From: Candidatus Sulfopaludibacter sp. SbA4
GTDB lineage: Bacteria > Acidobacteriota > Terriglobia > Bryobacterales > Bryobacteraceae
DNA length: 26,597 nucleotides
Assembly (NCBI GenBank): GCA_900290305.1
Contig: OMOG01000745.1
Coordinates: 8,882-35,478 of the forward strand
Direction of reading: 5' to 3'
Shown: positions 9,386 through 24,588 of the stretch, piece after piece
Layout of the letters: every line of letters starts with the position of its first letter
How positions within the stretch are numbered: the stretch's first letter is position 1
Translations under genes and position numbers: made by a program
The notes under the pieces: model-generated
What the model was told of the DNA's origin: nothing
Database searches by the model: none
The model's input: the letters and a program-made list of their open reading frames with translations, nothing else

Positions 9386-9540
9386 GGCACTCTCTAGAAA
9401 CCTCTGGACAACCCACTGAGCTGCTTGGTACTACAACAGCCTCAAGTCTTCGCAGCCTGCGACGATTTGGTGGGGCGAGCCCCGTTGGTTGCGGCTCTGC
9501 TGCACTGTGGGGCAGGCCATCGTTTTCTGTGGCCTGCCTC
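9386..9540 (+). repeat. copy 2 of the 53-nt conserved element (9430-9483) with trailing hairpins GAGCC..GGCTC and GGCAGGCCA-N10-TGGCCTGCC
   Basis: Same orientation as copy 1. Substitutions fall in the predicted loop (CCGCCTC vs CAGCCTG). The trailing hairpins differ in sequence but keep their position. Confidence 0.5.
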
Positions 9541-9609: not shown

Positions 9610-12600
9610 ATGAAGCTATTACGGAATCCCTGGATGCGGGCCGCGGTGGCCTGCTGGATTTGCCCGCTGGCATCCGCGCAAGTCATCACCACCTACGCGG
9701 GAAACGATGCGCCGTTTACGGGCGCCGGCCAGAAGGCCACCGCGGTCCAGATTGCGCGGCCCGACGGCATTGCCGTGGATAGCCAGGGCATCGTGTTCGT
9801 GGCCGCCGGCGGGCTGGCCATGATTCTCAAGATCGATACCAGCGGCGTCGTATCGGTGGTGGCCGGCAACGGGCTGGTCCGCTATTCGGGCGATGGCGGT
9901 CCGGCAACCGGCGCTTCCCTGTCGAACCCGATGGGGCTGGCGGTTGACGGCGCCGGGAACCTGTACATCGCCGACGTCGGGAACGCCGTGGTACGCCGCG
10001 TGGATCTAACGGGAACCATCACCACGGTGGCCGGCAACGGGCAGCACGGATTTGCGGGGGACGGTGGGCCCGCGGTCAGTGCCATGCTGTCAAACCCGAC
10101 CGCGGTCGCCGTGGATAAGGCCGGCAACCTCTATATCGCGGACTCGCTTGAGGAGCGCATTCGGCTGGTCAGGCCGGACGGCACCATTTCCACCCTGGCG
10201 GGCAACGGAACCGACGGTCTGACGGGGGACAACGGGCCGGCCTTACAAGCCGGGTTTGGCCGGCCGAGCGGCCTGGCGCTCGATTCGGCTGGCAATCTCT
10301 ATGTGGCCGATCAATTCAATAACGTAGTCCGGAAGATCTCGAACGGCGCCATCACCACGGTGGCCGGCAACGGCAACGGCGGCTCTTCCGGAGACAACGG
10401 GCCGGCCACCAAGGCTGCCCTGGGAATCGTGAACGGTGTGGCGTTCGACGCCGCCGGCAACCTGTACATCAGCACCATTGGGAATCAGGGCATCCGGCGG
10501 GTCGACACCTCGGGCACCATCACCACCATCGCGGGCACCGGAAAGGCCGGATTCAGCGGCGATGGAAGCACCGCTCTGTCGGCCGCATTCAGCACTCCGG
10601 GCGCCTTGGCGGTCGATCCTTCGGGCGCCGTCCTGGTAGTGGACCAGGATAACAACCGCATTCGCCGCGTGGTTCCAGGCGGCGTGGTCACGACCATTGC
10701 TGGGCAGACCCTCTCCATCGGCGATTCCGGCGCGGCCACGCTGGCGCGGCTGACCAACCCCGGAGGGACTGCCGTGGACGCGGCCGGCAATCTCTACATT
10801 GCCGACACTGGACAGAATCGAATTCGCAAGGTGACTCCTTCAGGCACCATCACCACCGTGGCCGGCACCGGCGCGACGGGAGGCGGAGGCAACGGCGGAG
10901 CGGCAACGGCGGCGACCCTCAACAGCCCCTACGCAGTTGCCGTGGACAAAGCTGGGAACCTCTTCATTGCAGACGCGGGGAGCAACGCGGTCCGGCGGGT
11001 GGACGCGGTCACCGGGGTCATCTCGGCGTTCGCCGGAACCGGAGCCTGCTGCTACGGAGGCAACGGCACCGGCGGGGACGGAGGGCCGGCCACTGCCGCG
11101 ACCCTGTACTTCCCGACCAGCATAGCTGTGGATCAAAGCGGGAACGTATACTTCACCAACGTCGTGCAACTGGCCGGCGGCATCGATCAGGGCGCCCGCG
11201 TGCGCCGGGTGACGACCGACGGAAAAATCGACGTGTACGCAGGTGGGGGCTTCGGATTCGCAGGGGATGGCGGAGCCGCTACGTCGGCGCTTTTGGGCGC
11301 GAACCTGAAGATTGCCGTGGGACCCGACGGCAGCCTGTACATCGCCGACCAGGACAACAACCGCGTGCGCCGCGTGGACCCCGCGAGTGGCATCATCACC
11401 ACGGTTGCAGGCAATGGCAAATCGACGCCCTCAGGCGACGGTGGGCAGGCCACATCGGCGGGAGTCAGCGCGTGGTCGGTTGCAGTGGACCAAGCCAACA
11501 ACCTCTATATCGGCGGCTTGGCCGCGGTTCGCAAAGTCACTCCGGCGGGCGTCATCGGCACCTACGCCGGAAACGGACAGTTCAGCTTTTCCGGGGATGG
11601 CGGCCCCGCAACATCGGCGTCGATTCCCATTGCGGGGTACCTGTCCACCGACGGCGCGGGAAACCTGTACATCACCGACGGCTCCGACGAACGCATACGC
11701 ATCGTGCAGCCGGGAAACTCGGCACTGGCAGTGTCGCCAACCTCGCTGGCGTTCACCGCAACGGGGCCCGCGAGCCAGACGGTCACGGTGACGAATAGCG
11801 GCAGCGGCACGCTGGGCTGGGCCACCGCGGTGAGCACCATTTCGGGCGGCGCATGGCTTTCGGTTTCGCCTGCCACGGGATCGAGCGCGGCCGGCCAGCC
11901 GGGCGCCACCGTGACGGTCTCGGTGAAACCCGCCGGACTCGCCAACGGCGACTACTACGGCCTGGTCCAGGTGACGTCTTCCAGCGCTTCGAACCCCGTG
12001 TCGCTGGTCACCGTGAGGCTGACCGTCGGGACCCCCGGACCCGATCCGCCCAAGGTGGCGTCGGGCGGCGTGCTCAATACCGCCAGTTACAGTCTGCAGA
12101 CACCCGTGGCGCCTGGCACCCTGGTGGCGATCTTCGGCTCCAATCTCGCGGATGCCGGACAGGTGTACACGGCGTCGTCCTTTCCATGGCCCACCCAGCT
12201 CGGCGGAACCTCGGTGTCCATCGGCGGCGAGTTGCTGCCGCTGTACGTGGTGACGCCCACGCAGATCAACGCGATCCTGCCTTTCGATCTTCCCGTGGGT
12301 ACCACCCTGCCGCTGGTGGTGACGCATGGCAACGCGCTCTCCGCGCCCGAACCGGTGAACCTCGTGGCCTCCGAGCCGGGAGTGTTTACGCTGTCGCAAA
12401 ATGGATCGGGCACGGCCATTGCGGTGATCGTGCATGCCGACGGATCGAGCGCGTTGGCGGGCCCTGGCGCCTCGGCGAAGGCCGGCGACGCATTGGTGAT
12501 TTACTGTACGGGTTTGGGGGCCGTGTCGCCGCGCGCGGTAGCCGGAACACCCATACCGTTGCAGCCCCTTTCGACCGCGATCGATCCCGTGACCGTGACC

Positions 12601-12774
12601 ATCGGGGGCGTAAACGCACCGGTCTTTTTCGCCGGCGCCACGGCCGGCCTGACGGGGCTCTACCAGGTGAATGTCACGGTGCCCTCCGGGATCGCGGCAT
12701 CCGCGCAAGCCCCGCTGATTTTGACGCAAAGCGGGAGGAGCAGCCCGGCGGGGGTGACTATTCCGGTGCAGTAG
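9610..12774 (+). CDS. secreted NHL-repeat beta-propeller protein (1054 aa) with C-terminal Ig-like / Solibacter-type beta domains
   Basis: A GGAGG SD lies 5 nt before the ATG. The signal peptide is MKLLRNPWMRAAVACWICPLASA-QV. At least 15 repeats of a GNLYIAD...N.RIRRV...G.ITTVAGNG..GFSGDGGPAT unit (NHL) follow. The C-terminal part carries BACON/Ig-like and TIG-like segments of the kind common in Solibacter proteins. Confidence 0.85.
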   Translation: MKLLRNPWMRAAVACWICPLASAQVITTYAGNDAPFTGAGQKATAVQIARPDGIAVDSQGIVFVAAGGLAMILKIDTSGVVSVVAGNGLVRYSGDGGPATGASLSNPMGLAVDGAGNLYIADVGNAVVRRVDLTGTITTVAGNGQHGFAGDGGPAVSAMLSNPTAVAVDKAGNLYIADSLEERIRLVRPDGTISTLAGNGTDGLTGDNGPALQAGFGRPSGLALDSAGNLYVADQFNNVVRKISNGAITTVAGNGNGGSSGDNGPATKAALGIVNGVAFDAAGNLYISTIGNQGIRRVDTSGTITTIAGTGKAGFSGDGSTALSAAFSTPGALAVDPSGAVLVVDQDNNRIRRVVPGGVVTTIAGQTLSIGDSGAATLARLTNPGGTAVDAAGNLYIADTGQNRIRKVTPSGTITTVAGTGATGGGGNGGAATAATLNSPYAVAVDKAGNLFIADAGSNAVRRVDAVTGVISAFAGTGACCYGGNGTGGDGGPATAATLYFPTSIAVDQSGNVYFTNVVQLAGGIDQGARVRRVTTDGKIDVYAGGGFGFAGDGGAATSALLGANLKIAVGPDGSLYIADQDNNRVRRVDPASGIITTVAGNGKSTPSGDGGQATSAGVSAWSVAVDQANNLYIGGLAAVRKVTPAGVIGTYAGNGQFSFSGDGGPATSASIPIAGYLSTDGAGNLYITDGSDERIRIVQPGNSALAVSPTSLAFTATGPASQTVTVTNSGSGTLGWATAVSTISGGAWLSVSPATGSSAAGQPGATVTVSVKPAGLANGDYYGLVQVTSSSASNPVSLVTVRLTVGTPGPDPPKVASGGVLNTASYSLQTPVAPGTLVAIFGSNLADAGQVYTASSFPWPTQLGGTSVSIGGELLPLYVVTPTQINAILPFDLPVGTTLPLVVTHGNALSAPEPVNLVASEPGVFTLSQNGSGTAIAVIVHADGSSALAGPGASAKAGDALVIYCTGLGAVSPRAVAGTPIPLQPLSTAIDPVTVTIGGVNAPVFFAGATAGLTGLYQVNVTVPSGIAASAQAPLILTQSGRSSPAGVTIPVQ

Positions 12775-16257: not shown

Positions 16258-16923
16258 ATGGCCACTGCTGTTCTCAAGCAACAGTTCGAATCGGTGCTGG
16301 GCGGCCACCTGGACTGGCAGTCCCGGCCGGCGCCGGAGCGGGTGCGGTCGGGCATTTCGGAGGTGGATGCGGCCACCGGGGGGCTGCCGCGCGGATGCCT
16401 GACGGAGATCTTCGGCCCGGCTTCTTCGGGACGCACCAGCCTGCTGGTGTCCATCCTGGCGGAGGCCACGGGTCGCGATGAGGTCTGCGCGCTGGTGGAT
16501 GCGGAAGATGCCTTCGACCCCACGTCGGCGGCCGCGGCCGGAGTGCGTTTGGAGCGGCTGCTTTGGGTACGCGCCGCGCACAACGCCGAGCACGCGCTCA
16601 AAGCGGCCGACCTGCTGATCCAGGGCGGCGGTTTCGGAATGGTGGCCATGGATCTCGGCGACACGCGCCCCGAAACCGCGCGCCGCATTTCGCTGACTTC
16701 CTGGTTTCGCCTGCGGCGCGCGGTGGAGAACACGCCCACCGTGCTGGTGGCGGTGGCGCGGCAATCCAACGCCAAGACCTGCGCTTCCTTGATGCTGGAG
16801 TGCAGGCGCGAGCGCATCGCGTGGAGCGGGGAAAAGCGGCTGCTGCGCGCCATCGAGGTGCGGGTGGCGTCGACTCATCGGAGCAAGGTATGTTCGCCTG
16901 TCTTCACGGCCAAGGCAATCTGA
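16258..16923 (+). CDS. imuA: ImuA (RecA-fold SulA-like) component of the imuA-imuB-dnaE2 mutagenesis cassette
   Basis: GGLPRGCLTEIFGPASSGRTSLLVSILAEAT is a degenerate Walker-A-like RecA-fold core. The position is immediately upstream of imuB with a 34-nt overlap. Confidence 0.7.
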   Translation: MATAVLKQQFESVLGGHLDWQSRPAPERVRSGISEVDAATGGLPRGCLTEIFGPASSGRTSLLVSILAEATGRDEVCALVDAEDAFDPTSAAAAGVRLERLLWVRAAHNAEHALKAADLLIQGGGFGMVAMDLGDTRPETARRISLTSWFRLRRAVENTPTVLVAVARQSNAKTCASLMLECRRERIAWSGEKRLLRAIEVRVASTHRSKVCSPVFTAKAI

Positions 16924-18155
16924 CCGCGCTGGCCTTCGAGTTCTCGCCCACCGTGGAGCGGACCGCGGAGCCCTTGGCAGGGTGCCAGGAAGAAACCGTG
17001 ACGCTCGACGCCTCGGGGCTCGACCGGTTGTTCGGGCTTCCACAGGATGTGGCGGCGGCGCTGGCGCGTCGGGCCGCCGAAATCCGGGTGAAGGCCAACA
17101 TTGCGCTCGCGGCAAATCCCGATGCGGCCATCTGCGCGGCGCGCGGTTTCGCGGGCGTCAGCGTGATCCCGCAGGGCGACGAAGGCAAGTTCCTCGGCAC
17201 GCTGCCGCTCGCGGTGCTGGCCCCATCGCCCGAATTGCAGGAGACGCTGGAGCGATGGGGCATCCGCCGGTTCCAGGAGCTGGCGGGCTTGCCCCCGCTG
17301 GGGATCGCCGAGCGGCTCGGTCCCGAGGGATTGCGTCTGCGCGAGCTGGCGCGCGGCGAGGCGGAGCGCAAGCTGGTGCCGCTCGACCCGCCGCTGCGTT
17401 TCGAAGACGAGCTCGAGATGGAGTATCCGGTGGAGCTGCTGGAGCCGCTGGCGTTCGTGCTCTCACGGCTGCTGAACGGCCTGGCCACGCGCTTGGCCAC
17501 GCGCGGCCTGGCCACCGACGAACTGCGCCTGCGATTGAAGCTCGAAAACCGCGCGGCCCACGAGCGGACGCTGCGCCTGCCCGTGCCTTCGACCGATACC
17601 AAGGCATTTCTGAAGCTCTGGCAGCTCGACCTGTCGGCGAATCCTCCGCCAGCCCCCGTGGTGCACGTCTGGATGGGAGTGAACCCGGTAAAGCCGCAGG
17701 CAGCGCAGGGCGGCCTGTTCGTGCTGGCGAAGCCCGAGCCGGTGAAGCTGGAGCTGACGCTGGCGCGCATCCGGTCGATCGTGGGGGAAGGGCGAGCGGG
17801 CACTCCGGAGCTGCTCGACACCCACCGGCCGGGCGCGTTCCGGATGGCATCAGTGGCACAGGCATTCTTGCCTGTGTCTAGAAGGCCCTCTTTCCAGGTC
17901 CGCCTGTCCCTCCGCATCTTCCGTCCGCCGCGCGCCGCGCGAGTGGCCATCGCATCCGGGCAGCCCAGCTTCATCGACGCCCAAGGCATCCGCGGCAAGG
18001 TGTTAGAACTCGCCGGACCGTGGCGAACGTCCGGCGACTGGTGGACTACCGACCCGTGGTCGCGCGACGAATGGGACATCGCACTGTCGGACGGGGCGCT
18101 GTATCGGCTGTACTGCGACCCGCGCGGGTGGTTTTTGGAGGGGAGTTACGACTGA
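16890..18155 (+). CDS. imuB: ImuB, catalytically inactive Y-family polymerase-like protein (start at MFACLHGQGNL)
   Basis: An N-terminal Y-family fold (MFACLHG.. lacking the catalytic acidic triad context) and a conserved C-terminal ...GPWRTSGDWW...ALYRLYCDPRGWFLEGSYD tail. The upstream 109 codons of the ORF overlap imuA. Confidence 0.75.
   Translation: MFACLHGQGNLTALAFEFSPTVERTAEPLAGCQEETVTLDASGLDRLFGLPQDVAAALARRAAEIRVKANIALAANPDAAICAARGFAGVSVIPQGDEGKFLGTLPLAVLAPSPELQETLERWGIRRFQELAGLPPLGIAERLGPEGLRLRELARGEAERKLVPLDPPLRFEDELEMEYPVELLEPLAFVLSRLLNGLATRLATRGLATDELRLRLKLENRAAHERTLRLPVPSTDTKAFLKLWQLDLSANPPPAPVVHVWMGVNPVKPQAAQGGLFVLAKPEPVKLELTLARIRSIVGEGRAGTPELLDTHRPGAFRMASVAQAFLPVSRRPSFQVRLSLRIFRPPRAARVAIASGQPSFIDAQGIRGKVLELAGPWRTSGDWWTTDPWSRDEWDIALSDGALYRLYCDPRGWFLEGSYD
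17855..17878. repeat. inverted copy of the REP-like palindrome (GGCACAGGCATTCTTGCCTGTGTC) embedded in-frame in imuB
   Basis: A 22-nt exact match to the reverse complement of 4916-4939. It encodes VAQAFLPV within ImuB. Confidence 0.6.
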
Positions 18156-18285: not shown

Positions 18286-19071
18286 ATGCTCTTACATTTG
18301 ACGGCCGTTCAGATGCATAAAACCATGTCCTCCGGCCGAAACAAACCGGTCGTATTTGGCTGCATTGATGCCCAAGGCAACATGGCGGGCGATTACGTCG
18401 TGAAACTGTCCGGAGCGATGGAAACGCGGGCGCGGGGACCCGCCAGCGAGTTGATCGCTTCCTGCCTGGCAGGGCATTTTGGCCTGCAGTGTCCGAAGCC
18501 GGCCGTCGTCCAGTTGCATCCAGACTTGGTCAAATGGCTGGTGGCACAACGTTCTGACCTGGCGCCAATTATTCGTGCCAGTACAGGCTTCAATTTCGGT
18601 ACTGAGTTCCTGACAGACGGGGCAATCTGGCCGCCGGGCCGGCCTCTGCCGGAGACGATGTTCCTTACCGCGACCCACATATTTGCATTTGACGCCCTGA
18701 TCGACAATGACGATCGGCGGCGCGCGAATTCCAACGTCCTCGTCCGCGGCGATGATATCTTTGTCATAGACCATGAATCCGCTTTTGCATTCCTCTACCT
18801 GGTCCATACCCGCGTAGCGCCCTGGGAGGTCCGGCAGCGAACATCCCTCCGCGAGCATGTTTTCTTCTATCAACTCCGGAAGCAGCCCATCGACCTCACC
18901 ATGTTCACCGCGAGACTCGCAGGTCTCGGAGACGTTGAACTGGACCAAATGATCCAACAGATGCCAACCGAGTGGCGGCATGAAGATCTGGGCCGTGTTT
19001 CCGCACACTTAATGGCTGTGCGAGACCACGCGGCCGAATTTGAAAGGCAAGTTTTGGAGATATTGGCATGA
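18286..19071 (+). CDS. HipA-like (PI3/4-kinase-fold) putative Ser/Thr kinase, 261 aa
   Basis: FDALIDNDDRRRANSNVLV...DDIFVIDHESAF parallels the HipA catalytic and Mg-binding motifs (FNxLIGNxDDHxKNxSxL...LAPAYD). It is a small stand-alone kinase in a lower-GC islet. Confidence 0.5.
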   Translation: MLLHLTAVQMHKTMSSGRNKPVVFGCIDAQGNMAGDYVVKLSGAMETRARGPASELIASCLAGHFGLQCPKPAVVQLHPDLVKWLVAQRSDLAPIIRASTGFNFGTEFLTDGAIWPPGRPLPETMFLTATHIFAFDALIDNDDRRRANSNVLVRGDDIFVIDHESAFAFLYLVHTRVAPWEVRQRTSLREHVFFYQLRKQPIDLTMFTARLAGLGDVELDQMIQQMPTEWRHEDLGRVSAHLMAVRDHAAEFERQVLEILA

Positions 19072-19937
19072 TCCCATATAGCTTCAGTGTGCTTCGGTAT
19101 ATTCACGATGGCGTGACGGCGGAGTTCGTCAATGTCGGCGTGGCCGTATATGCAGGTGACCCGCCCTACCTGAAGGCAAAATGCACGATCCAATATGGCC
19201 GGATCACCCGCCTGTTCGATCGGATTGACGGCGATCGATTCAAGCAACTGGTCCGGTACATCGAGGAGGAGGTCACAAACCTCGGAGAAAAGCTCCGTCA
19301 ACGGACTCTCCCGTTTGCCGAGCGCGGCGCCACGATCCACGCGTTGCTCAAGGAGGTGTTGCCGCCTGACGACAGTGCGATTCAGTTTTCTCCAGCGGGA
19401 TTGGGTGTGACCGCGGACCTGGATGCAACCTTAGCCGAGTTGTACGAGCGGTATGTCGAGCGGTATTCCGGGGAGCAGGAGGTGCCGAGCCGCAGCAATG
19501 ATGAAGTCTGGCGTGTCTTCCGGCGGCCCCTGGAACGCCGCAACGTCATGGCGCACCTTACGCCGAAGAAAATTGTCGCTCCGGACTATGAATATGAGTT
19601 CCGTGCCGCGTGGAAGAATGAGGACTGGCATGTGTTTGAGCCCGTGTCATTCGACCTGGTAGAGCCGAACTCCATGCTGGAAAAGGCCAACCGATGGGTG
19701 GGGCGTTCGGCCAGCCTCGTCGAAAGCCCAGAGCAATTTCGCATTCATTTGCTCATCGGGGCGCCTCAGGACCCGCGCTTGTCGGGCGCCTTTACAAAGA
19801 CTCAACATATTCTGGGCAAGATGAGTGGTAACCCTGAGATAGTTTTGGAAAACCAGGCTGAAGAATTCGCGGCGGAACTCGAACGCCAAATCGGTGTCCA
19901 TGGCGGAGACGCACACGATCTGTTCGATCTGCGCTGA
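19068..19937 (+). CDS. DUF3037-like domain protein (289 aa), translationally coupled to the HipA-like kinase
   Basis: The N-terminus MIPYSFSVLRYIHDGVTAEFVNVGVAVYAGD matches the characteristic DUF3037 opening (..Y..LRY.P....EFVNIGV.L). There is an ATGA overlap with the upstream gene and a GGAGA SD. Confidence 0.6.
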   Translation: MIPYSFSVLRYIHDGVTAEFVNVGVAVYAGDPPYLKAKCTIQYGRITRLFDRIDGDRFKQLVRYIEEEVTNLGEKLRQRTLPFAERGATIHALLKEVLPPDDSAIQFSPAGLGVTADLDATLAELYERYVERYSGEQEVPSRSNDEVWRVFRRPLERRNVMAHLTPKKIVAPDYEYEFRAAWKNEDWHVFEPVSFDLVEPNSMLEKANRWVGRSASLVESPEQFRIHLLIGAPQDPRLSGAFTKTQHILGKMSGNPEIVLENQAEEFAAELERQIGVHGGDAHDLFDLR

Positions 19938-19963
19938 CAAGTCCTGGGCGCTTCGGTCACTGC

Positions 19964-19999
19964 TTGACGACGCTGTCGATACGTATCATAATACGTATC
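19964..19999 (+). promoter_or_regulatory. prlF-yhaV promoter/operator: TTGACG-N17-CATAAT overlapped by the palindrome GATACGTAT-cata-ATACGTATC (19978-19999)
   Basis: 9-bp perfect arms with a 4-nt spacer over the -10. This is the typical autoregulatory operator geometry for AbrB-fold antitoxins. Confidence 0.55.
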
Positions 20000-20012
20000 A
20001 GAGAGCAAGCCC

Positions 20013-20360
20013 ATGCCGACATTCTCCGGCTCCATCACGACAACGGGAAAATCGGAGGCCATCCGCCTGGACAAAGCTCTTTTCAGGCTTCATCCGGAGT
20101 TCCGTCAAAAGGCCAAGGTGCGTGCTCAAGTGATCGCTCCCGGTCACGCCCTGATTTCCGTGATGGAGGAAGGCGCCCCGGAAGTCCAGGAAGAGGATCC
20201 CGTAGTCACCGCATTTCTCGCATTCCTCGAAAAGGACATGAAAGCGCACCCCAAACGCATGGCCGCACTTTCGAAGCGATCCATCGCTCGCGCCACCCGG
20301 TTGACCAGGCGGGTGAAGGTGACGGACGACGAACGTCTTCCGGATGACATTTCGTTCTAG
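20013..20360 (+). CDS. prlF: type II antitoxin PrlF (SohA) family, swapped-hairpin AbrB-like
   Basis: The N-terminal beta-hairpin reads TTTGKSEAIRLDKAL. The C-terminal segment EEDPVVTAFLAFLEKDMKAHPKR parallels E. coli PrlF HPDPVLGAFLDFLAADIQNNPQ. An acidic tail follows. Confidence 0.75.
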   Translation: MPTFSGSITTTGKSEAIRLDKALFRLHPEFRQKAKVRAQVIAPGHALISVMEEGAPEVQEEDPVVTAFLAFLEKDMKAHPKRMAALSKRSIARATRLTRRVKVTDDERLPDDISF

Positions 20361-20368
20361 TTCTCACC

Positions 20369-20848
20369 ATGCGCCCGGCGCCCTTAACAGTGCGGAACGG
20401 GTGGAAGCTGTATGCCCACCCGGCCTTCAGCCAAAGATTGGAAGTCCTGATCGGGACCGCGGAGGCGCTCGAAAAGCGACGGCCCCAAAGCTATCGCGAT
20501 CACCCCAGCGCCAAACTGCTCAAACGCACCCTGGACCTGATTCTGGTTGAAATTCCACGGGATCCGAACGCGGCGGAATTCCAGCTTGGCAATACGCTGG
20601 GACCGGCGTATCGCCATTGGCGGCGCGCGAAGTTTCTCGGTCGATTTCGACTCTTCTTCCGGTTCAGCAGCACTCACAAGGCCATTGTGTACGCCTGGGT
20701 GAATGACGAAACCACGCTTCGGAAGGAAGGGTCACAGAGCGATCCTTACGCAGTTTTTATCAGGCGTCTTCAAACAGGCAACCCACCGGACCATTGGGAT
20801 GTCTTACTTCGGGAAGCGGATGCCGCCGACTTCAACGACGGAGACTAA
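20369..20848 (+). CDS. yhaV: type II toxin YhaV (ribosome-dependent RNase) family
   Basis: NGWKLYAHPAF ... HWRRAKFLGRFRLFFRFSSTHKAIVYAWVNDETTLR aligns almost motif-for-motif with E. coli YhaV (NGWALYAHPCF ... HWSRAKFFNGRYRLFFRYSSRHKTIVYAWVNDENTLR). Confidence 0.8.
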   Translation: MRPAPLTVRNGWKLYAHPAFSQRLEVLIGTAEALEKRRPQSYRDHPSAKLLKRTLDLILVEIPRDPNAAEFQLGNTLGPAYRHWRRAKFLGRFRLFFRFSSTHKAIVYAWVNDETTLRKEGSQSDPYAVFIRRLQTGNPPDHWDVLLREADAADFNDGD

Positions 20849-20849
20849 C

Positions 20850-21152
20850 TTACGGCAGATCTAGCGCCAGTTTGATGGCCTGTTCAATCTTCTCAAGAGC
20901 GGCGTGGCTCAGCGCGCCCAGCGGTGGATAGACAGCCTTGGACTTTTCGATCGTCGTCACCTGGTCGCACTTGACCCACGAATCGCGATCCAGGCCGCCT
21001 TCGCCTACTAGAAGATTCGGGCGCAGACGGAAGGCTTTGTGCTCTGCGGTGGAGATCGGCACCACGCAAACATCCAGGGAGTGGCGGTTCAGCGCGTCGG
21101 ACGAGATGACCAGGGCCTGCGGGGCGGGAGCGCCAACTCTCTTCACCGGCAT
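20850..21152 (-). CDS. MazF/PemK-family toxin-like protein, apparently lacking the usual N-terminal beta-strand
   Basis: PQALVISSDALNRHSLDVCVVPISTAEHKAFRLRPNLLVGEGGLDRDSWVKCDQVTTIEKSKA parallels the PemK/MazF core (RPVLIV...VVPITS...DSVVLCDQIRTID). An in-frame stop lies 12 codons upstream of the ATG, so the GEIWLVDFDP strand is absent. Confidence 0.6.
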   Translation of the reverse strand: MPVKRVGAPAPQALVISSDALNRHSLDVCVVPISTAEHKAFRLRPNLLVGEGGLDRDSWVKCDQVTTIEKSKAVYPPLGALSHAALEKIEQAIKLALDLP

Positions 21153-21337
21153 GACCCGCGCGTCCAGGACTCTCGGGCCGCGGACTCAAAAGCGCGGCGC
21201 TCCGCACGATCCTCGTGGTTGGCGGCAAAGAAGCCGGCAATTTCCCGCTCCAGGGGCGCTCGCTTTTCCTGATCCAAGGCAAAACGCAGCAGCCGGTTCA
21301 CCCGCTCGCTCTTCGACAAGTTTCCGTGGGGCTTCAC
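21143..21337 (-). CDS. putative antitoxin partner of the MazF-like gene (64 aa from a GTG; start uncertain)
   Basis: A small ORF overlapping the toxin start by 10 nt (ATGCCGGTGA arrangement), at the usual antitoxin position. It has no confident family motif. Confidence 0.35.
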   Translation of the reverse strand: MKPHGNLSKSERVNRLLRFALDQEKRAPLEREIAGFFAANHEDRAERRAFESAARESWTRGSCR

Positions 21338-21388
21338 TACAGCGAGAATAGCAAAGCGGGGGACCGCGAGGCCCCCATCTGGAAGCCG

Positions 21389-21447
21389 TTGACACCCCCA
21401 ACCCCATGCTGTATAAATTAAGTACAGGCGAATAAATGGCGAATATC
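21389..21447 (+). promoter_or_regulatory. dnaE2 promoter: TTGACA(21389-94)-N17-TATAAA with CTGTATAAAT, then GGCGAATA-N3-GGCGAATA abutting the ATG at 21448
   Basis: A near-duplicate of the imuA upstream block, including the direct repeat placed one helical turn apart over the RBS. It also contains the palindrome CTGTA-N9-TACAG. Confidence 0.6.
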
Positions 21448-24400
21448 ATGTTTATCGAGCTGCACGCCCGCTCCGCATTCAGCTTCCTCGAAGGCGCCTG
21501 TGTGCCCGAGGAACTGGCCGGCGCCTGCGCGGAATTCGGCATGCCTGCCATGGCCATCATGGACCGCAACGGCGTCTACGGCGCGCCGCGTTTCCACATG
21601 GCTGCCAGGAAGGCCGGCATCCGCGCGCACATCGGATCGGAGATCACCTGCACCAACGGCGTCTGTTATCCCCTGCTGGTGGAAACGCGAGAGGGCTATC
21701 AGAACCTCTGCCGCCTGGTCACCCGCATGAAGCTGCGCGCCAAAAAAGGGGAAGGCGCGGTCACGCTGGAAGAGATCGCGGAATTCGCGCGCGGCCTCGT
21801 CTGCATCACGCGCCATCCCGATGAGCGGCTGCTCGACATGTTCGGCCGCGGCAACGTCTACGCCGAGCTGCAGCGCCACTACCATCGCGAAGAGGAGGCG
21901 CGGAACCAGGCCATCGTGGACCGCGCGCGGCGGCTCGGCATCCCGCTGGTGGCCACCAACGGCGCCGCCTACGCCACGCCCGCGCAGCGTGAGCTGCTGG
22001 ATGTCTTTACCTGCGTCCGCAATCACGTGACGCTCGCCGATGCCGGCCGGCTGCTGGAGCGCAACTCGGAGCGCCACGTCAAAACTCCCGCCGAGATGGC
22101 GCGCCTGTTCGCCGATCTTCCCGAAGCCATCGCCAACACGCGAGAGATCTCCTCGCGGCTCCAGTTCACGCTGGCCGACCTGGGCTACGAGTTCCCGCGC
22201 TATCCCGTCCCCGAGGGCCACACGCAGATGTCCTTCCTGCGTCAGCTCGTGGACGAGGGAGCGCGTTTCCGCTACCAGCCGTATCACGAACGCGCGCGCC
22301 GGCAGATCGAGCGCGAGCTGGCGCTCATCGAGAAGCTGAACCTGCCCGGGTATTTTCTGATCGTGTGGGACATCGTGCGCTTCTGCCGCGAGAACGACAT
22401 CCTGTCGCAGGGCCGCGGCTCGGCCGCCAACAGCGCGGTGTGCTACGCGCTGCGCATCACCGCCGTCGACCCCGTGGGCATGGACCTGCTCTTCGAACGC
22501 TTCCTTTCCGAGGAGCGCGGCGAGTGGCCCGACATCGATATCGACCTGCCCAGCGGCGACAAACGCGAGCGCGCCATCCAGTACGTCTACCAGCGCTTCG
22601 GTAAGCTGGGCGCGGCCATGACCGCCAACGTCATCACCTACCGCGGCCGTTCCGCGGCGCGCGAGGTGGGCAAGGCGCTGGGCTTCGAGATCACCACGCT
22701 CGAGCGGCTTTCGAGCCTGGTGCGGACGTGGGAATGGAAGGACCCCAAGGACACCAACGAACGCCAGTTCCGCGAGGCTGGCTTCGACCTGAGCCATCCG
22801 CGCGTGCGCAAATTTTTCGAGCTGTACCGCATGGCGCAGGATCTGCCGCGCCACCTCGGACAGCACTCGGGCGGCATGGTGATCTGCCAGGGGGCGCTCG
22901 ATTCGGTGGTGCCGCTCGAACCGGCCACCATGCCCGGCCGCGTGGTGGTGCAGTGGGACAAGGAAGACTGCGCCGATATGGGGATCATCAAGGTGGACCT
23001 GCTGGGGCTGGGGATGATGGCGGTGATCGAGGACACCCTCAAGCTGATTCCCCAGACATACGGAGAAGAGGTGGACCTGGCGCACCTGCCGCCCGACGAC
23101 CCCGCGGTATTCCAGGCGCTGCAGAAGGCCGACACCATTGGCATGTTCCAGGTGGAGAGCCGCGCGCAGATGTCGTCGCTGCCGCGCATGCGGCCGCAGC
23201 GGTTCTACGACATCGTGGTGCAGGTAGCGATCATCCGGCCGGGGCCGATCGTGGGCAAGATGGTGCATCCTTATTTGAACCGGCGGCAGGGGCGGGAAGC
23301 GCCGGACTGCCTGCACCCCTCGCTCGAGCCGGTGCTCCGGCGGACGCTGGGAGTGCCGCTGTTCCAGGAGCAGTTGCTGCGCATGGCGATGATCGCGGCG
23401 GGATTCACGGGCGGGCAGGCCGAGGAGCTGCGCCGCGCCATGGGCTTCAAGCGCTCGGAAAAACGCATGGCCGAGATCGAAGTGAAGCTGCGCGAGGGCA
23501 TGGATCGCAACGGCATTCGGGGCAAGGCGCAGGAGGATATCGTGCGCTCCATCACCGCGTTCGCGCTGTACGGATTTCCCGAGTCGCACGCCGCGAGCTT
23601 CGCGCTGCTGGCGTATGCCAGCGCGTATCTGAAGTGCCATTACCTGGCGGCGTTCACCTGCGCCCTGCTGAACAACCAGCCGATGGGTTTTTATGCGCCG
23701 GCCATTCTGATCAAGGACGCGCAGCGGCACGGCCTGCGCGTGCTGCCGGTGGATGTGGCGCGCTCGGAGTGGGAGTGCACGGTGGAGGGGGATTACTCGA
23801 CGCGGAGCCGCAGAGGGCGCGGAGAAAAGCGCGGAGAAGAACACGAGAGAACGGAGGGGGCAGAGAGCGCGGAGGATCCTTCCACGTTGCGCCTTAGGCT
23901 CGGGCTGCAGTATGCCAGGGGGCTGCGGGAGGAAGCGGGGCGCGCGATCGTGCGGGCGCGGCCGTTCAGCAGCGTGGACGACCTGGCCTTGCGCGTGCCG
24001 GAACTGCGCAAGGACGAAATCAACCGGCTGGCGGAAATCGGCGCGCTCAATTCCCTGGAGGCCCATCGCCGCGATGCCCTCTGGCAGGCGCAGCGCGCGA
24101 TCCTGCCGGTGGGCCCGCTGCTCGAGCCGCTGGAAGAAACGGGCCAGCCGTCGCCGCTCTCTCCCATGACCACGGACGAGCGGCTATCGGCCGATTACCG
24201 CGGCACCGGCCTGACCATCGGCAAGCACCCCATGGCCTATCGCCGAGCCGAAATGAACGCGCTCAAAGTGACTCGCGCCATCGACCTGGAACGGGTTCCG
24301 GACGGCCGCCTGGTGCGTATCGCGGGGTCGGTAATCGTGCGGCAGCGTCCCGGCACGGCCAACGGATTCGTCTTCCTGAGCATGGAGGACGAGACCGGCA

Positions 24401-24588
24401 TCATGAACGCGATCGTCACGCCGGCCACCTTCGACCGCTACAAGTTCCAGGTATTGGGCGAGCGGTTTTTGTTGATTGATGGCGTGCTGCAAAATCTGGA
24501 TGGCGTGATCTCGGTGAAGGCCGGGCGGATCGAAGGCCTGCGCGCGGGGGCAGTGGCGGCGTCGTATTGTACAAATTATCTGTTGTAG
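21448..24588 (+). CDS. dnaE2: error-prone DNA polymerase DnaE2 (ImuC); an alternative ATG lies 12 nt upstream at 21436
   Basis: The PHP domain opening MFIELHARSAFSFLEGACVPEEL parallels M.YAELHC.SNFSFLRGAS. The pol III alpha catalytic core (GRGSAANSAVCYALRITAVDP, PDIDIDL) and an OB-fold C-terminus are present. The start was chosen by alignment of the promoter/RBS block with imuA. Confidence 0.9.
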   Translation: MFIELHARSAFSFLEGACVPEELAGACAEFGMPAMAIMDRNGVYGAPRFHMAARKAGIRAHIGSEITCTNGVCYPLLVETREGYQNLCRLVTRMKLRAKKGEGAVTLEEIAEFARGLVCITRHPDERLLDMFGRGNVYAELQRHYHREEEARNQAIVDRARRLGIPLVATNGAAYATPAQRELLDVFTCVRNHVTLADAGRLLERNSERHVKTPAEMARLFADLPEAIANTREISSRLQFTLADLGYEFPRYPVPEGHTQMSFLRQLVDEGARFRYQPYHERARRQIERELALIEKLNLPGYFLIVWDIVRFCRENDILSQGRGSAANSAVCYALRITAVDPVGMDLLFERFLSEERGEWPDIDIDLPSGDKRERAIQYVYQRFGKLGAAMTANVITYRGRSAAREVGKALGFEITTLERLSSLVRTWEWKDPKDTNERQFREAGFDLSHPRVRKFFELYRMAQDLPRHLGQHSGGMVICQGALDSVVPLEPATMPGRVVVQWDKEDCADMGIIKVDLLGLGMMAVIEDTLKLIPQTYGEEVDLAHLPPDDPAVFQALQKADTIGMFQVESRAQMSSLPRMRPQRFYDIVVQVAIIRPGPIVGKMVHPYLNRRQGREAPDCLHPSLEPVLRRTLGVPLFQEQLLRMAMIAAGFTGGQAEELRRAMGFKRSEKRMAEIEVKLREGMDRNGIRGKAQEDIVRSITAFALYGFPESHAASFALLAYASAYLKCHYLAAFTCALLNNQPMGFYAPAILIKDAQRHGLRVLPVDVARSEWECTVEGDYSTRSRRGRGEKRGEEHERTEGAESAEDPSTLRLRLGLQYARGLREEAGRAIVRARPFSSVDDLALRVPELRKDEINRLAEIGALNSLEAHRRDALWQAQRAILPVGPLLEPLEETGQPSPLSPMTTDERLSADYRGTGLTIGKHPMAYRRAEMNALKVTRAIDLERVPDGRLVRIAGSVIVRQRPGTANGFVFLSMEDETGIMNAIVTPATFDRYKFQVLGERFLLIDGVLQNLDGVISVKAGRIEGLRAGAVAASYCTNYLL

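What the first reader, a model, noticed from the sequence alone, without database searches (positions are those of the whole stretch)
17855..17878. REP-like 22-nt palindrome inserted in-frame inside the imuB coding sequence
Seen: GCACAGGCATTCTTGCCTGTGT (17856-17877) is an exact 22-nt reverse-complement match to the intergenic palindromes at 4881-4942. A 22-mer match by chance in 26.6 kb is negligible. Here it lies inside imuB, in frame, encoding ...[14 protein letters not shown]..., in the poorly conserved linker before the conserved C-terminal WFLEGSYD region. Inference: a miniature palindromic element has colonised a tolerant disordered linker of ImuB. Alternatively the stem-loop is a functional mRNA structure (pause or processing site) within the SOS operon.
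Basis: partly seen in the sequence, partly recalled or inferred. Interest (0 to 1): 0.55.

Follow-up and report, generated by a model that had tools for sequence, protein, structure and literature searches.

The report
REP palindrome translated inside ImuB linker
A copy of a short, widely dispersed bacterial palindromic repeat (a REP element) sits in frame in a flexible linker of the SOS mutagenesis protein ImuB; this kind of passenger is already known, but related bacteria carry other such repeats at the same spot.

Summary
GCACAGGCATTCTTGCCTGTGT at 17856-17877 matches 4918-4939 exactly on the opposite strand and 4884-4905 with one mismatch; none is expected by chance.

With its 5' GTGG it is a canonical GT[AG]G-headed REP: an 8-bp perfect stem and a 4-nt loop. 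The exact 22-mer occurs in at least 112 stretches of public genomes, mostly Bryobacteraceae, always behind GT[AG].

In imuB it is read in frame as VAQAFLPV. It lies in the hypervariable linker between the RecA-NT-like helix and the conserved ImuB-C domain.

It is not a clean 8-residue insertion. Close relatives without a hairpin carry FGRAKPQ-type residues, and the linker is only 2 residues shorter. Other orthologues carry different REPs in the same linker:
- the same 25-mer as a tandem dimer;
- the same family in the opposite orientation;
- a compensatory stem variant at the same codon;
- unrelated GTAG palindromes.

Perfect hairpins are about 13-fold denser in the linker than in the rest of imuB.

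In-frame REPs in DNA-repair genes, including dnaE2, were described in 2013, so this is a new member of a known kind. A locus-specific RNA function is not supported. The cognate RAYT transposase was not found. The same core also occurs in several other phyla.

The parts
17853..17877 (+). REP copy inside imuB. It consists of a GTGG head (17853-17856), stem CACAGGCA (17857-17864), loop TTCT (17865-17868), stem TGCCTGTG (17869-17876) and a trailing T. It is translated in frame as V-A-Q-A-F-L-P-V.
   Evidence: (I6/I7). As RNA the hairpin folds at -19 kcal/mol on the sense strand and -14.5 on the antisense strand.
16890..18155 (+). imuB coding sequence (421 aa from MFACLHG; the mechanical ORF starts at 16563). 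By comparison with the mycobacterial map it has a QGGLF clamp-motif-like pentapeptide, a RecA-NT-like helix (PEPVKLELTLARIRSIVG), the variable linker, and ImuB-C from LRIFRPP to the end.
   Evidence: The domain order is taken from PMC11791113; the mapping onto this protein is my inference from the alignment.
17829..17918 (+). Hypervariable ImuB linker between the conserved DTHR and FRPP anchors. It hosts the REP.
   Evidence: The stretch including both anchors is 24-63 aa long across 120 homologues. Perfect hairpins run at 2.21 per kb here and 0.17 per kb in the rest of imuB.
4918..4942 (-). REP copy with a GTAG head (GTAGCACAGGCATTCTTGCCTGTGT on the - strand). It begins directly after the TAG stop of ORF 5338-4943 and is the first unit of a head-to-tail dimer.
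   Evidence: (D17, I7).
4884..4908 (-). REP copy with a GTGG head and one stem mismatch (GTGGCACAGGCATTCTTGCCGGTGT on the - strand). It is the second unit of the dimer, after a 9-nt spacer, and lies upstream of hfq.
   Evidence: (D17, I6).
16258..16923 (+). imuA-like RecA-fold gene, overlapping the start of imuB (context).
   Evidence: RecA domain; ImuA_translesion, below cut-off.
21436..24588 (+). dnaE2 / imuC error-prone polymerase (context). It is separated from imuB by about 3.3 kb of other genes.
   Evidence: NF004225, 1203.8 bits, cut-off 939.

Best explanation
The 25-nt sequence at 17853-17877 is one copy of a dispersed REP family (repetitive extragenic palindrome). The family has a GT[AG]G head, an 8-bp perfect stem CACAGGCA/TGCCTGTG and a TTCT loop. 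The copy became embedded in the imuB coding sequence of a Bryobacteraceae (Acidobacteriota) genome. It sits in the length- and sequence-variable linker that joins the RecA-NT-like helix to the C-terminal ImuB-C domain. It keeps the reading frame and is translated as the octapeptide VAQAFLPV, so a full-length ImuB is still encoded. It persists because that linker tolerates almost any sequence. The REP core has no stop codon in any of its six frames, so frame-preserving insertions in either orientation remain readable. Shown here: family membership by sequence and architecture; in-frame position; variability of the site; independent REPs in the same linker in orthologues; in-frame copies of the same 22-mer in linkers of other proteins. 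Inferred: the copy arrived by the REP dissemination route. That route is single-stranded hairpin DNA cut and rejoined by a RAYT/TnpA(REP) HUH-Y1 enzyme, or gene conversion from another REP copy. The copy probably has no function specific to imuB. The recurrence in the linker most likely reflects a selection filter, this being the stretch of imuB where insertions survive. An existing REP may also attract replacement or duplication by other REPs.
For: Family and architecture:
Every copy is preceded by GT[AG].
- It occurs as singles, head-to-tail dimers and tail-to-tail inverted dimers.
- About 80 of the 111 copies in high-GC loci are intergenic.
- Related subfamilies (GGCAGGCG, GACAGGCG and GACAGACG stems with a CTTT loop) flank Y1_Tnp/RayT genes as REPtrons in Bryobacteraceae contigs. 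One lies directly downstream of an imuB orthologue.
- These features match the published definition of GTAG REPs, including GTGG heads and G.T pairs (PMC3733652). They also resemble group-3 REPs that are perfect 8-bp palindromes (PMC8266576).

Site tolerance:
- The linker is the only badly aligned stretch among 38 orthologues that are 76-94% identical.
- Including both anchors it varies from 24 to 63 aa over 120 homologues.

Recurrence at the site:
- L115 has the exact 25-mer plus a second unit, while its flanks are only 85-90% identical.
- L118 and L153 have a 24/25 match in the opposite orientation, nearer the C-terminal side of the linker.
- L193 has GTGG-GACAGGCC-TCCC-GGCCTGTC at the same codon. 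It is 19/25 identical while the flanks are 88-91% identical, and two of the stem changes are compensatory.
- L117, L113 and L119 carry other palindromes.
- Perfect hairpins are 13-fold enriched in the linker.

Same 22-mer in frame elsewhere:
- Between the Pyr_redox_2 and DHODB Fe-S domains (L022).
- Between the AMIN and Amidase_3 domains (L056, two copies).
- In a C-terminal tail (L095).

Precedent: in-frame REPs in replication and repair genes, including dnaE2 (PMC3733652 and its supplement).
Against: - The RAYT cognate to the CACAGGCA-TTCT subfamily was not found in the window, in 112 REP loci (about 0.8 Mb) or among the RAYT loci sampled.
- REP transposition has never been shown in vivo, so the route of arrival is inferred.
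- The allele is not a simple insertion relative to hairpin-free orthologues. The net change is +2 aa and about 10 codons are replaced, so insertion boundaries cannot be defined.
- Disorder of the linker was not shown structurally. The AlphaFold run was uninformative, with mean pLDDT 36.7.
- All three window copies are in the sense orientation.
- Family copies within 40 nt of a stop codon are biased to sense (24 against 7). Some RNA-level role of the family as a whole cannot be excluded.
Confidence: 0.85

Rival explanations
1. The stem-loop is a selected, locus-specific mRNA element within imuB. It could be a translational pause, an RNase barrier or processing site, or an attenuator that uncouples expression of the ImuB-C domain or downstream genes in the SOS operon.
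For: Strong hairpins recur in the same part of imuB in several orthologues, and window versus L193 differ by compensatory stem changes. The sense-strand RNA hairpin is more stable than the antisense one (-19 against -14.5 kcal/mol; z = -3.3). Family copies just downstream of stop codons favour the sense orientation, 24 to 7.
Against: 24 of 30 distinct linkers have no perfect hairpin of 8 bp or more. These include orthologues 89-91% identical to the window (L191, L116). L118 and L153 carry the element in the opposite orientation at another position in the linker. The sequence is identical to more than 100 copies elsewhere, which a locus-specific structure would not require. No Rfam family matches even at E of 10 or less. 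No T-run follows the hairpin.
Confidence: 0.07
2. The REP-encoded peptide was co-opted. The hydrophobic octapeptide VAQAFLPV, or simply the altered linker, changes how ImuB interacts with ImuA, DnaE2 or the clamp, and is maintained by selection on the protein.
For: The REP head replaces the [FW]G dipeptide of a moderately conserved F[RH][MIV]xx[FW]G motif with V-A or V-G in several alleles. Linker length stays near 36-40 aa despite turnover. Di Nocera et al. note many REPs in repair genes.
Against: Peptides at the site are extremely diverse and depend on which palindrome, frame and orientation is present: [40 protein letters not shown] and others. The same DNA element gives unrelated peptides in other proteins. 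No test of function was possible.
Confidence: 0.05
3. The match is coincidental or convergent coding sequence and not a repeat element.
For: None beyond the fact that the element is short.
Against: Zero matches were expected in shuffles. The 25-nt identity includes the GT[AG]G head. There are hundreds of copies in related genomes. Orthologues without the element encode different residues.
Confidence: 0.01

Closest known systems
GTAG-tagged REPs located inside genes ('REP-decorated' proteins), Di Nocera, De Gregorio & Rocco 2013 (PMC3733652). Examples are the Opitutus terrae dnaE2 (Oter_4053) and uvrA genes and the Sphingomonas wittichii dnaE2 gene.
   Same: Both are short palindromes with a GTAG or GTGG head, a 6-9 bp stem, a short loop and G.T pairs. 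Both are mostly intergenic, with a minority in frame within ORFs as singles or dimers. Both are often in DNA replication and repair genes, including the mutasome polymerase, and both are argued to sit in flexible linkers.
   Different: The stem-loop sequence (CACAGGCA-TTCT) and host clade (Bryobacteraceae) differ, and none of the encoded peptides I searched for appears in the paper's supplementary files. The host gene is imuB, which that paper does not list. Here the same linker is shown to carry different REPs in different orthologues.
Group-3 REPtrons, for example the Stenotrophomonas maltophilia REP and its TnpA(REP) (PMC8266576).
   Same: Both have a perfect 8-bp palindrome, a 3-4 nt loop and a 5' GTAG-type tetranucleotide on one strand. 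Sister subfamilies here flank a Y1_Tnp/RayT gene in inverted orientation.
   Different: The head is mostly GTGG here. No biochemical data exist. The RAYT cognate to the window's subfamily was not identified.
REPINs of Pseudomonas and Enterobacteria (Bertels & Rainey; PMC3116915, PMC3337134).
   Same: The family forms inverted tail-to-tail doublets with a spacer in many genomes.
   Different: The imuB copy is a singlet and the window's intergenic pair is a direct head-to-tail dimer. REPIN-RAYT systems are described as vertically inherited within lineages, whereas this core is identical across several phyla.
Rickettsia palindromic elements (RPE) inserted in frame in protein genes. This comparison rests on my own knowledge and on mentions in PMC3733652.
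   Same: Both are palindromic repeats that survive inside ORFs as extra in-frame peptide segments.
   Different: RPE-1 elements are much longer (about 100-150 nt) and are specific to Rickettsia. This comparison was not tested here.

Membership tests
GTAG-type REP (repetitive extragenic palindrome) | Short (20-40 nt) palindrome with a 6-9 bp stem and a short loop | tested here: met
   8-bp perfect stem and 4-nt loop at 17857-17876 and 4919-4938. It folds at -19 kcal/mol as RNA.
GTAG-type REP (repetitive extragenic palindrome) | Conserved GTAG tetranucleotide (or GTRG/GTGG variant) adjoining the stem on one strand only | tested here: met
   The three window copies have GTGG, GTAG and GTGG. All of about 125 copies in public loci are preceded by GT[AG]. 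The definition comes from PMC3733652 and PMC8266576.
GTAG-type REP (repetitive extragenic palindrome) | High copy number, dispersed, predominantly intergenic | tested here: met
   At least 112 stretches hold the exact 22-mer, with dozens of contigs per Bryobacteraceae MAG. About 80 of 111 copies are intergenic by a crude gene caller. Copy number in the window's own genome could not be counted; there are 3 copies in 26.6 kb.
GTAG-type REP (repetitive extragenic palindrome) | Occurs as singletons and as head-to-tail, head-to-head or tail-to-tail dimers | tested here: met
   Head-to-tail dimers at 4884-4942 and in L115. Tail-to-tail inverted dimers in L044, L105, L010, L032, L024 and others.
GTAG-type REP (repetitive extragenic palindrome) | A cognate RAYT/TnpA(REP) gene flanked by the same REPs (REPtron) | tested here: inconclusive
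   REPtrons were found for sister subfamilies. In L141 the ORF scores 32.3 bits for PF01797 (cut-off 23) and is flanked by GTGG-GACAGGCG-CTTT REPs. L196-L202 are flanked by GGCAGGCG or GACAGACG REPs. None is flanked by CACAGGCA-TTCT. No RAYT was found in the window or in L001-L112.
GTAG-type REP (repetitive extragenic palindrome) | Cleavage and strand transfer of the single-stranded REP by its RAYT | not testable with these tools
   This needs biochemistry, for example the CST assay of PMC8266576.
REPIN | Two REPs in inverted orientation separated by a short spacer form the mobile unit | tested here: not met
   The imuB copy is a single REP with no inverted partner within the linker. The family does form such doublets at other loci.
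Intragenic in-frame REP ('REP-decorated protein') | The element lies wholly inside an ORF of a known protein and keeps the frame, so that conserved downstream domains are still encoded | tested here: met
   The frame is continuous from MFACLHG to GWFLEGSYD*. The C-terminal 80 aa align with all orthologues.
MITE | Terminal inverted repeats bounding an internal segment, plus a target-site duplication | tested here: not met
   The element is a bare hairpin. No direct repeat flanks 17853-17877 (sequence).
Intrinsic terminator | GC-rich hairpin followed by a T-run | tested here: not met
   The hairpin is followed by CTAGAAGGCCC, with no T-run.
Any Rfam RNA family | Covariance-model match | tested here: not met
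   At the gathering threshold only a tRNA at 2724-2797 matched. E-value scans of 17750-17980 and 4700-5000 gave only noise at E > 1.

The most novel reading that the evidence does not exclude
The ImuB linker between RecA-NT and ImuB-C may be a preferred landing pad for REP elements, not merely a permissive one. REPs there turn over in place (same codon, different stems, dimerisation, inversion). REPs and even a RAYT REPtron cluster immediately around imuB in relatives. This would point to a mechanistic link between REP/RAYT activity on single-stranded DNA and the SOS mutasome locus. Separately, the REP core is invariant over 22-25 nt in genomes from at least five phyla with GC content of 31-69%. 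That would imply an unusually constrained or horizontally spreading REP-RAYT recognition module, contrary to the prevailing picture of lineage-restricted, vertically inherited REP families.
Probability: 0.12. Interest if true: 0.6.

Novelty: new member of a known kind. Interest (0 to 1): 0.33.

Why it matters
On its own this is an ordinary example of a known phenomenon: a REP tolerated in frame in a flexible protein linker of a DNA-repair gene. It is useful in three modest ways.

1. It marks the segment between RecA-NT and ImuB-C as functionally unconstrained in sequence across a whole clade. That is relevant to people dissecting the ImuA-ImuB-DnaE2 mutasome.
2. The set of orthologues with different REPs in the same linker is a natural series for studying how REPs are gained, replaced and decay inside genes.
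3. REP-derived peptides and REP-induced contig breaks are an annotation and assembly hazard in Acidobacteriota metagenomes. One contig 97% identical to the window ends exactly at the REP site.

The cross-phylum identity of the REP core is the one observation that could matter more widely, if it is confirmed with complete genomes and a cognate RAYT.

Tried and rejected
1. Clamp-motif idea. I first thought the conserved F[RH][MIV]xx[FW]G motif replaced by the REP head might be the beta-clamp-binding motif. I rejected this after reading the mycobacterial domain map (PMC11791113). The clamp motif precedes RecA-NT, and here a QGGLF pentapeptide about 45 residues upstream fits that position. The REP therefore lies in the linker downstream of RecA-NT.
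2. AlphaFold2 on the 38-sequence ImuB alignment, to show disorder of the linker. Mean pLDDT was 36.7 because the alignment is too shallow, so the result is uninformative.
3. Search for a RAYT next to the CACAGGCA REP. A regex for the Y..NP motif and tblastn with E. coli RayT and with the L141 RAYT, run against all loci, found only L141. A weak hit in L045 proved false on translation. REP-derived peptides were sought in the ends of 120 RAYT homologues and none was found. Three RAYT loci that were fetched are flanked by other REP subfamilies.
4. Full-text search for the sequence strings in 8 million papers gave no hits.
5. Rfam at the gathering threshold and at permissive E-values gave nothing relevant.
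6. An exact insertion boundary or empty-site reconstruction against hairpin-free alleles was not possible. The about 30-36 nt in question are too diverged to align.
7. The neighbour-joining tree of 120 homologues suggests several independent gains within the clade that is at least 87% identical. Resolution is too weak to count events, so I rely on orientation, position and family differences instead.
8. The orientation statistics use a home-made GC3 gene caller that over-extends starts. Treat them as indicative only.
Full report
**Observation.** The 22-mer GCACAGGCATTCTTGCCTGTGT is present at 17856-17877 on the + strand. Its reverse complement occurs exactly at 4918-4939 and with one mismatch at 4884-4905. 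None of 100 dinucleotide-preserving shuffles gave any match. The similarity extends to 25 nt when the preceding GTG is included (pairs I6/I7). The core is a perfect 8-bp stem (CACAGGCA/TGCCTGTG) with a 4-nt loop.

The sequence lies in the frame of a 421-aa ORF (16890-18155) and reads ...[20 protein letters not shown].... That ORF is imuB on four grounds:
- It overlaps the end of a RecA-fold imuA-like gene.
- A dnaE2 gene follows further downstream (NCBIfam 'error-prone DNA polymerase', 1203.8 bits, cut-off 939).
- It has sub-threshold Y-family polymerase similarity.
- Its homologues, up to 100% identical, are named 'protein ImuB' by JGI.

The closest named relative is a Candidatus Sulfopaludibacter protein (90% identity), and most named hits are Bryobacteraceae.

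**What the element is.** Most are in Bryobacteraceae and Bryobacterales MAGs, with dozens of contigs per MAG. In all of about 125 copies the 22-mer is preceded by GTG or GTA, so the unit is GT[AG]G + CACAGGCA + TTCT + TGCCTGTG. Each genome adds its own longer flanks. Copies occur as singles, as head-to-tail dimers (as at 4884-4942) and as tail-to-tail inverted dimers with the heads outward.

This is the published architecture of GTAG-tagged REPs. Those have stems of 6-9 bp, short loops, G.T pairs, heads that can degenerate to GTGG, and singletons plus HH/TT/HT dimers (Di Nocera et al. 2013, PMC3733652). It also resembles the perfect-palindrome group-3 REPs recognised as single-stranded hairpins by TnpA(REP) (PMC8266576).

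Sister subfamilies are present in the same loci: GGCAGGCG, GACAGGCG or GACAGACG stems with a CTTT loop, and GACAGGCC with a TCCY loop. Several of these flank Y1_Tnp genes in inverted orientation, the classical REPtron:
- In L141 the ORF scores 32.3 bits for PF01797 (cut-off 23) and matches E. coli RayT at 2e-8. It sits immediately downstream of an imuB orthologue between GTGG-GACAGGCG-CTTT-CGCCTGTC copies.
- Its homologues are widely annotated 'REP element-mobilizing transposase RayT'. Three further loci show the same bracket.

I did not find a RAYT flanked by the window's own CACAGGCA-TTCT subfamily.

**Where it sits in ImuB.** Aligning 38 orthologues (76-94% identical to the window protein) shows near-invariance everywhere except one stretch between ...ELLDTHRP and LRIFRPP. 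I compared this with the mycobacterial ImuB map: clamp motif, then RecA-NT, then a linker, then ImuB-C (PMC11791113). On that basis the conserved QGGLF and PEPVKLELTLARIRSIVG segments upstream correspond to the clamp-motif and RecA-NT positions, and the conserved C-terminal 80 residues correspond to ImuB-C. The REP is therefore in the linker between RecA-NT and ImuB-C. This mapping is inference from the alignment. A structure prediction meant to show disorder failed for lack of alignment depth (pLDDT 36.7).

Across 120 homologues the stretch from DTHR to FRPP, anchors included, is 24-63 aa long and its sequence is extremely heterogeneous.

**Is it an insertion?** Only in part. About a quarter of the homologues, including ones 89-91% identical to the window and also distant ones, share an FRMxxFGRA[KR]PQ...VRL linker of 36 aa with no hairpin (L191, L116). 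This looks ancestral. The window allele is 38 aa. About 10 codons are replaced, not 8 added, and the boundaries cannot be aligned. Nor is the refuting outcome (same residues, no indel): orthologues without the element encode different residues.

**Recurrence at the site.** DNA of 30 distinct orthologous linkers from metagenome contigs shows other REPs in the same linker:
- L115 has the exact 25-mer preceded by a second, overlapping unit (peptide [17 protein letters not shown]). Its flanks are only 85-90% identical to the window.
- L118 and L153 carry a 24/25 match in the opposite orientation, closer to the ImuB-C side (peptide QARTQAGMPVPR). This must be an independent event.
- L193 has GTGG-GACAGGCC-TCCC-GGCCTGTC at exactly the same codon as the window's REP. 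It is 19/25 identical while the flanks are 88-91% identical, and two of the stem changes are compensatory. That variant is itself a dispersed subfamily, found in L036 and directly after the imuB stop in L125 and L146. Replacement by another family member is therefore more likely than slow compensatory drift.
- L192 holds a loop-deleted relic.
- L117, L113 and L119 carry unrelated GTAG- or GTGG-headed palindromes. Further homologues encode peptides typical of translated palindromes or tandem repeats.

Perfect hairpins with stems of 8 bp or more occur at 2.21 per kb in the linkers and 0.17 per kb in the rest of imuB (6 in 2.7 kb against 7 in 41.8 kb). A contig 97% identical to the window ends exactly at ...FRM, as expected if assemblies break at the repeat.

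**Same element inside other genes.** Among the public copies, most apparent intragenic cases are artefacts of over-extended start codons. Several are genuine:
- An inverted dimer between the Pyr_redox_2 and DHODB Fe-S domains of a GltD-like protein (L022).
- Two tandem copies in the Pro-rich linker between the AMIN and Amidase_3 domains (L056).
- A copy within an FGE-sulfatase domain (L091).
- A copy in a C-terminal tail (L095).
- A copy that supplies the hydrophobic core of a putative signal peptide (L020).

The 25-mer has no stop codon in any of its six frames, which helps explain its survival in either orientation.

**Mechanism and rivals.** The best-supported reading is a passively tolerated REP copy in a linker that accepts almost any sequence. 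It probably arrived by the REP dissemination route, either RAYT action on single-stranded hairpins or conversion from other copies. That last step is inferred and not shown.

The main rival, a locus-specific mRNA structure, has three points in its favour:
- Hairpins recur in the linker.
- The sense-strand RNA hairpin is more stable (-19 against -14.5 kcal/mol).
- Family copies within 40 nt downstream of stop codons prefer the sense orientation (24 against 7, p = 0.003, crude gene calls).

That bias concerns 3'-end copies, however, and fits the general idea in the literature that many REPs act as 3' RNA hairpins. Within imuB most orthologues have no hairpin, the orientation can flip, and nothing in Rfam matches. 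Co-option of the peptide is unsupported because the encoded peptides are so diverse. Chance is excluded.

**Comparison with what is known, and novelty.** In-frame REPs in ORFs, their enrichment in replication and repair genes, and specifically REP dimers inside dnaE2 of Opitutus terrae and Sphingomonas wittichii were reported in 2013. That report also argued that flexible linkers tolerate them (PMC3733652 and its supplement). imuB is not in that list, and none of the encoded peptides I searched for appears in the supplement. The finding is therefore a new member of a known kind. The repeated, heterogeneous occupation of one linker across orthologues is a modest extension.

**An unexpected side observation.** The identical GT[AG]G plus 22-mer, usually as inverted dimers, also occurs in MAGs assigned to other phyla. 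These are Ignavibacteria and Kapaibacterium (locus GC 0.47-0.53), Aquificaceae (0.43-0.45), several Planctomycetota, an Opitutaceae and a GC 0.31 bacterium, plus two IMG/VR contigs. Several copies per MAG, lineage-specific flanks and very different GC content argue against simple bin contamination. Taxonomy rests on the record titles only, and no cognate RAYT was identified.

Noticed in passing
L004, L009, L034 (Aquificaceae); L008, L024, L038, L045 (Ignavibacteria); L026, L073, L110, L111, L098, L099 (Kapaibacterium); L010, L032, L040, L084, L090, L104, L029 (Planctomycetota); L035 (Opitutaceae); L071 (GC 0.31): The exact GT[AG]G + 22-mer REP core of the window occurs in MAGs assigned to several phyla other than Acidobacteriota. 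It is usually a tail-to-tail inverted dimer whose partner is a CACAGACA or CACAGGCA variant, with lineage-specific spacers and flanks. Cross-phylum identity of a REP core is unexpected if REP-RAYT systems are lineage-restricted.
   Followed up: partly
L141 3753-4433 (imuB ends at 3733): A RayT-like Y1 transposase gene bracketed by GTGG-GACAGGCG-CTTT REPs (a REPtron) lies immediately downstream of, and convergent with, an imuB orthologue. In L125 and L146, GACAGGCC REPs directly follow the imuB stop codon.
   Followed up: partly
window 18286-21400; L191 2117-2980: imuB and dnaE2 are not adjacent in the window. About 3.3 kb between them holds a HipA_2-like kinase gene (18286-19071), a DUF3037 gene (19068-19937) and further small ORFs. 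In a relative 91% identical in ImuB, a PrlF/YhaV toxin-antitoxin pair follows imuB. The space downstream of imuB seems to collect accessory modules.
   Followed up: no
public REP loci L001-L112 (high-GC subset): REP copies lying within 40 nt downstream of a stop codon are biased towards the orientation in which the GT[AG]G head strand is the mRNA sense strand (24 against 7, p = 0.003). Copies 41-150 nt away lean the other way (13 against 22). Gene calls came from a crude GC3-based caller.
   Followed up: partly
window 17853-17877 and all copies: The 25-nt REP (GTGG-head form) contains no stop codon in any of its six reading frames. It gives [16 protein letters not shown] and GTGILAC on one strand and [16 protein letters not shown] and TGKNACA on the other. 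Four of these peptides ([31 protein letters not shown]) were seen in predicted proteins.
   Followed up: partly
L020 about 1600-1650 (- strand): In one Bryobacterales contig the REP appears to encode the hydrophobic core of an N-terminal signal-peptide-like segment ([20 protein letters not shown]...). The start codon was not verified.
   Followed up: no
L130 (end of contig); L148 (end of contig): A metagenome contig 97% identical to the window's imuB ends exactly at ...TTCCGGATG (FRM), the position where the REP begins, consistent with an assembly break at the repeat. Another contig ends in Illumina adapter sequence (AGATCGGAAGAGCACACGTCTGAA) fused to imuB.
   Followed up: no
window 5867-5920 and 9430-9483: There is a 54-nt direct repeat, 89% identical (ACTACAACAG..TCAAGTCTTCGC.GCCT.CGACGATTTGGTGGGGCG..CCCC), at two sites 3.5 kb apart. 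The second copy is about 130 nt upstream of the NHL-repeat protein gene. No Rfam match. Unexplained.
   Followed up: no
L188 1-45, L189 1-45, L178 300-340, L182 1-75: More distant ImuB orthologues carry other repeat types in the same linker. These are tandem heptamers (CCGAACT)n, (GGGAGTC)n runs and a CACAGAGACACGGAG-type palindrome, so the linker accepts tandem repeats as well as REPs.
   Followed up: no
window 9610-12774: This large ORF has about 168-nt periodic internal repeats (families D1-D6). It was not examined further.
   Followed up: no
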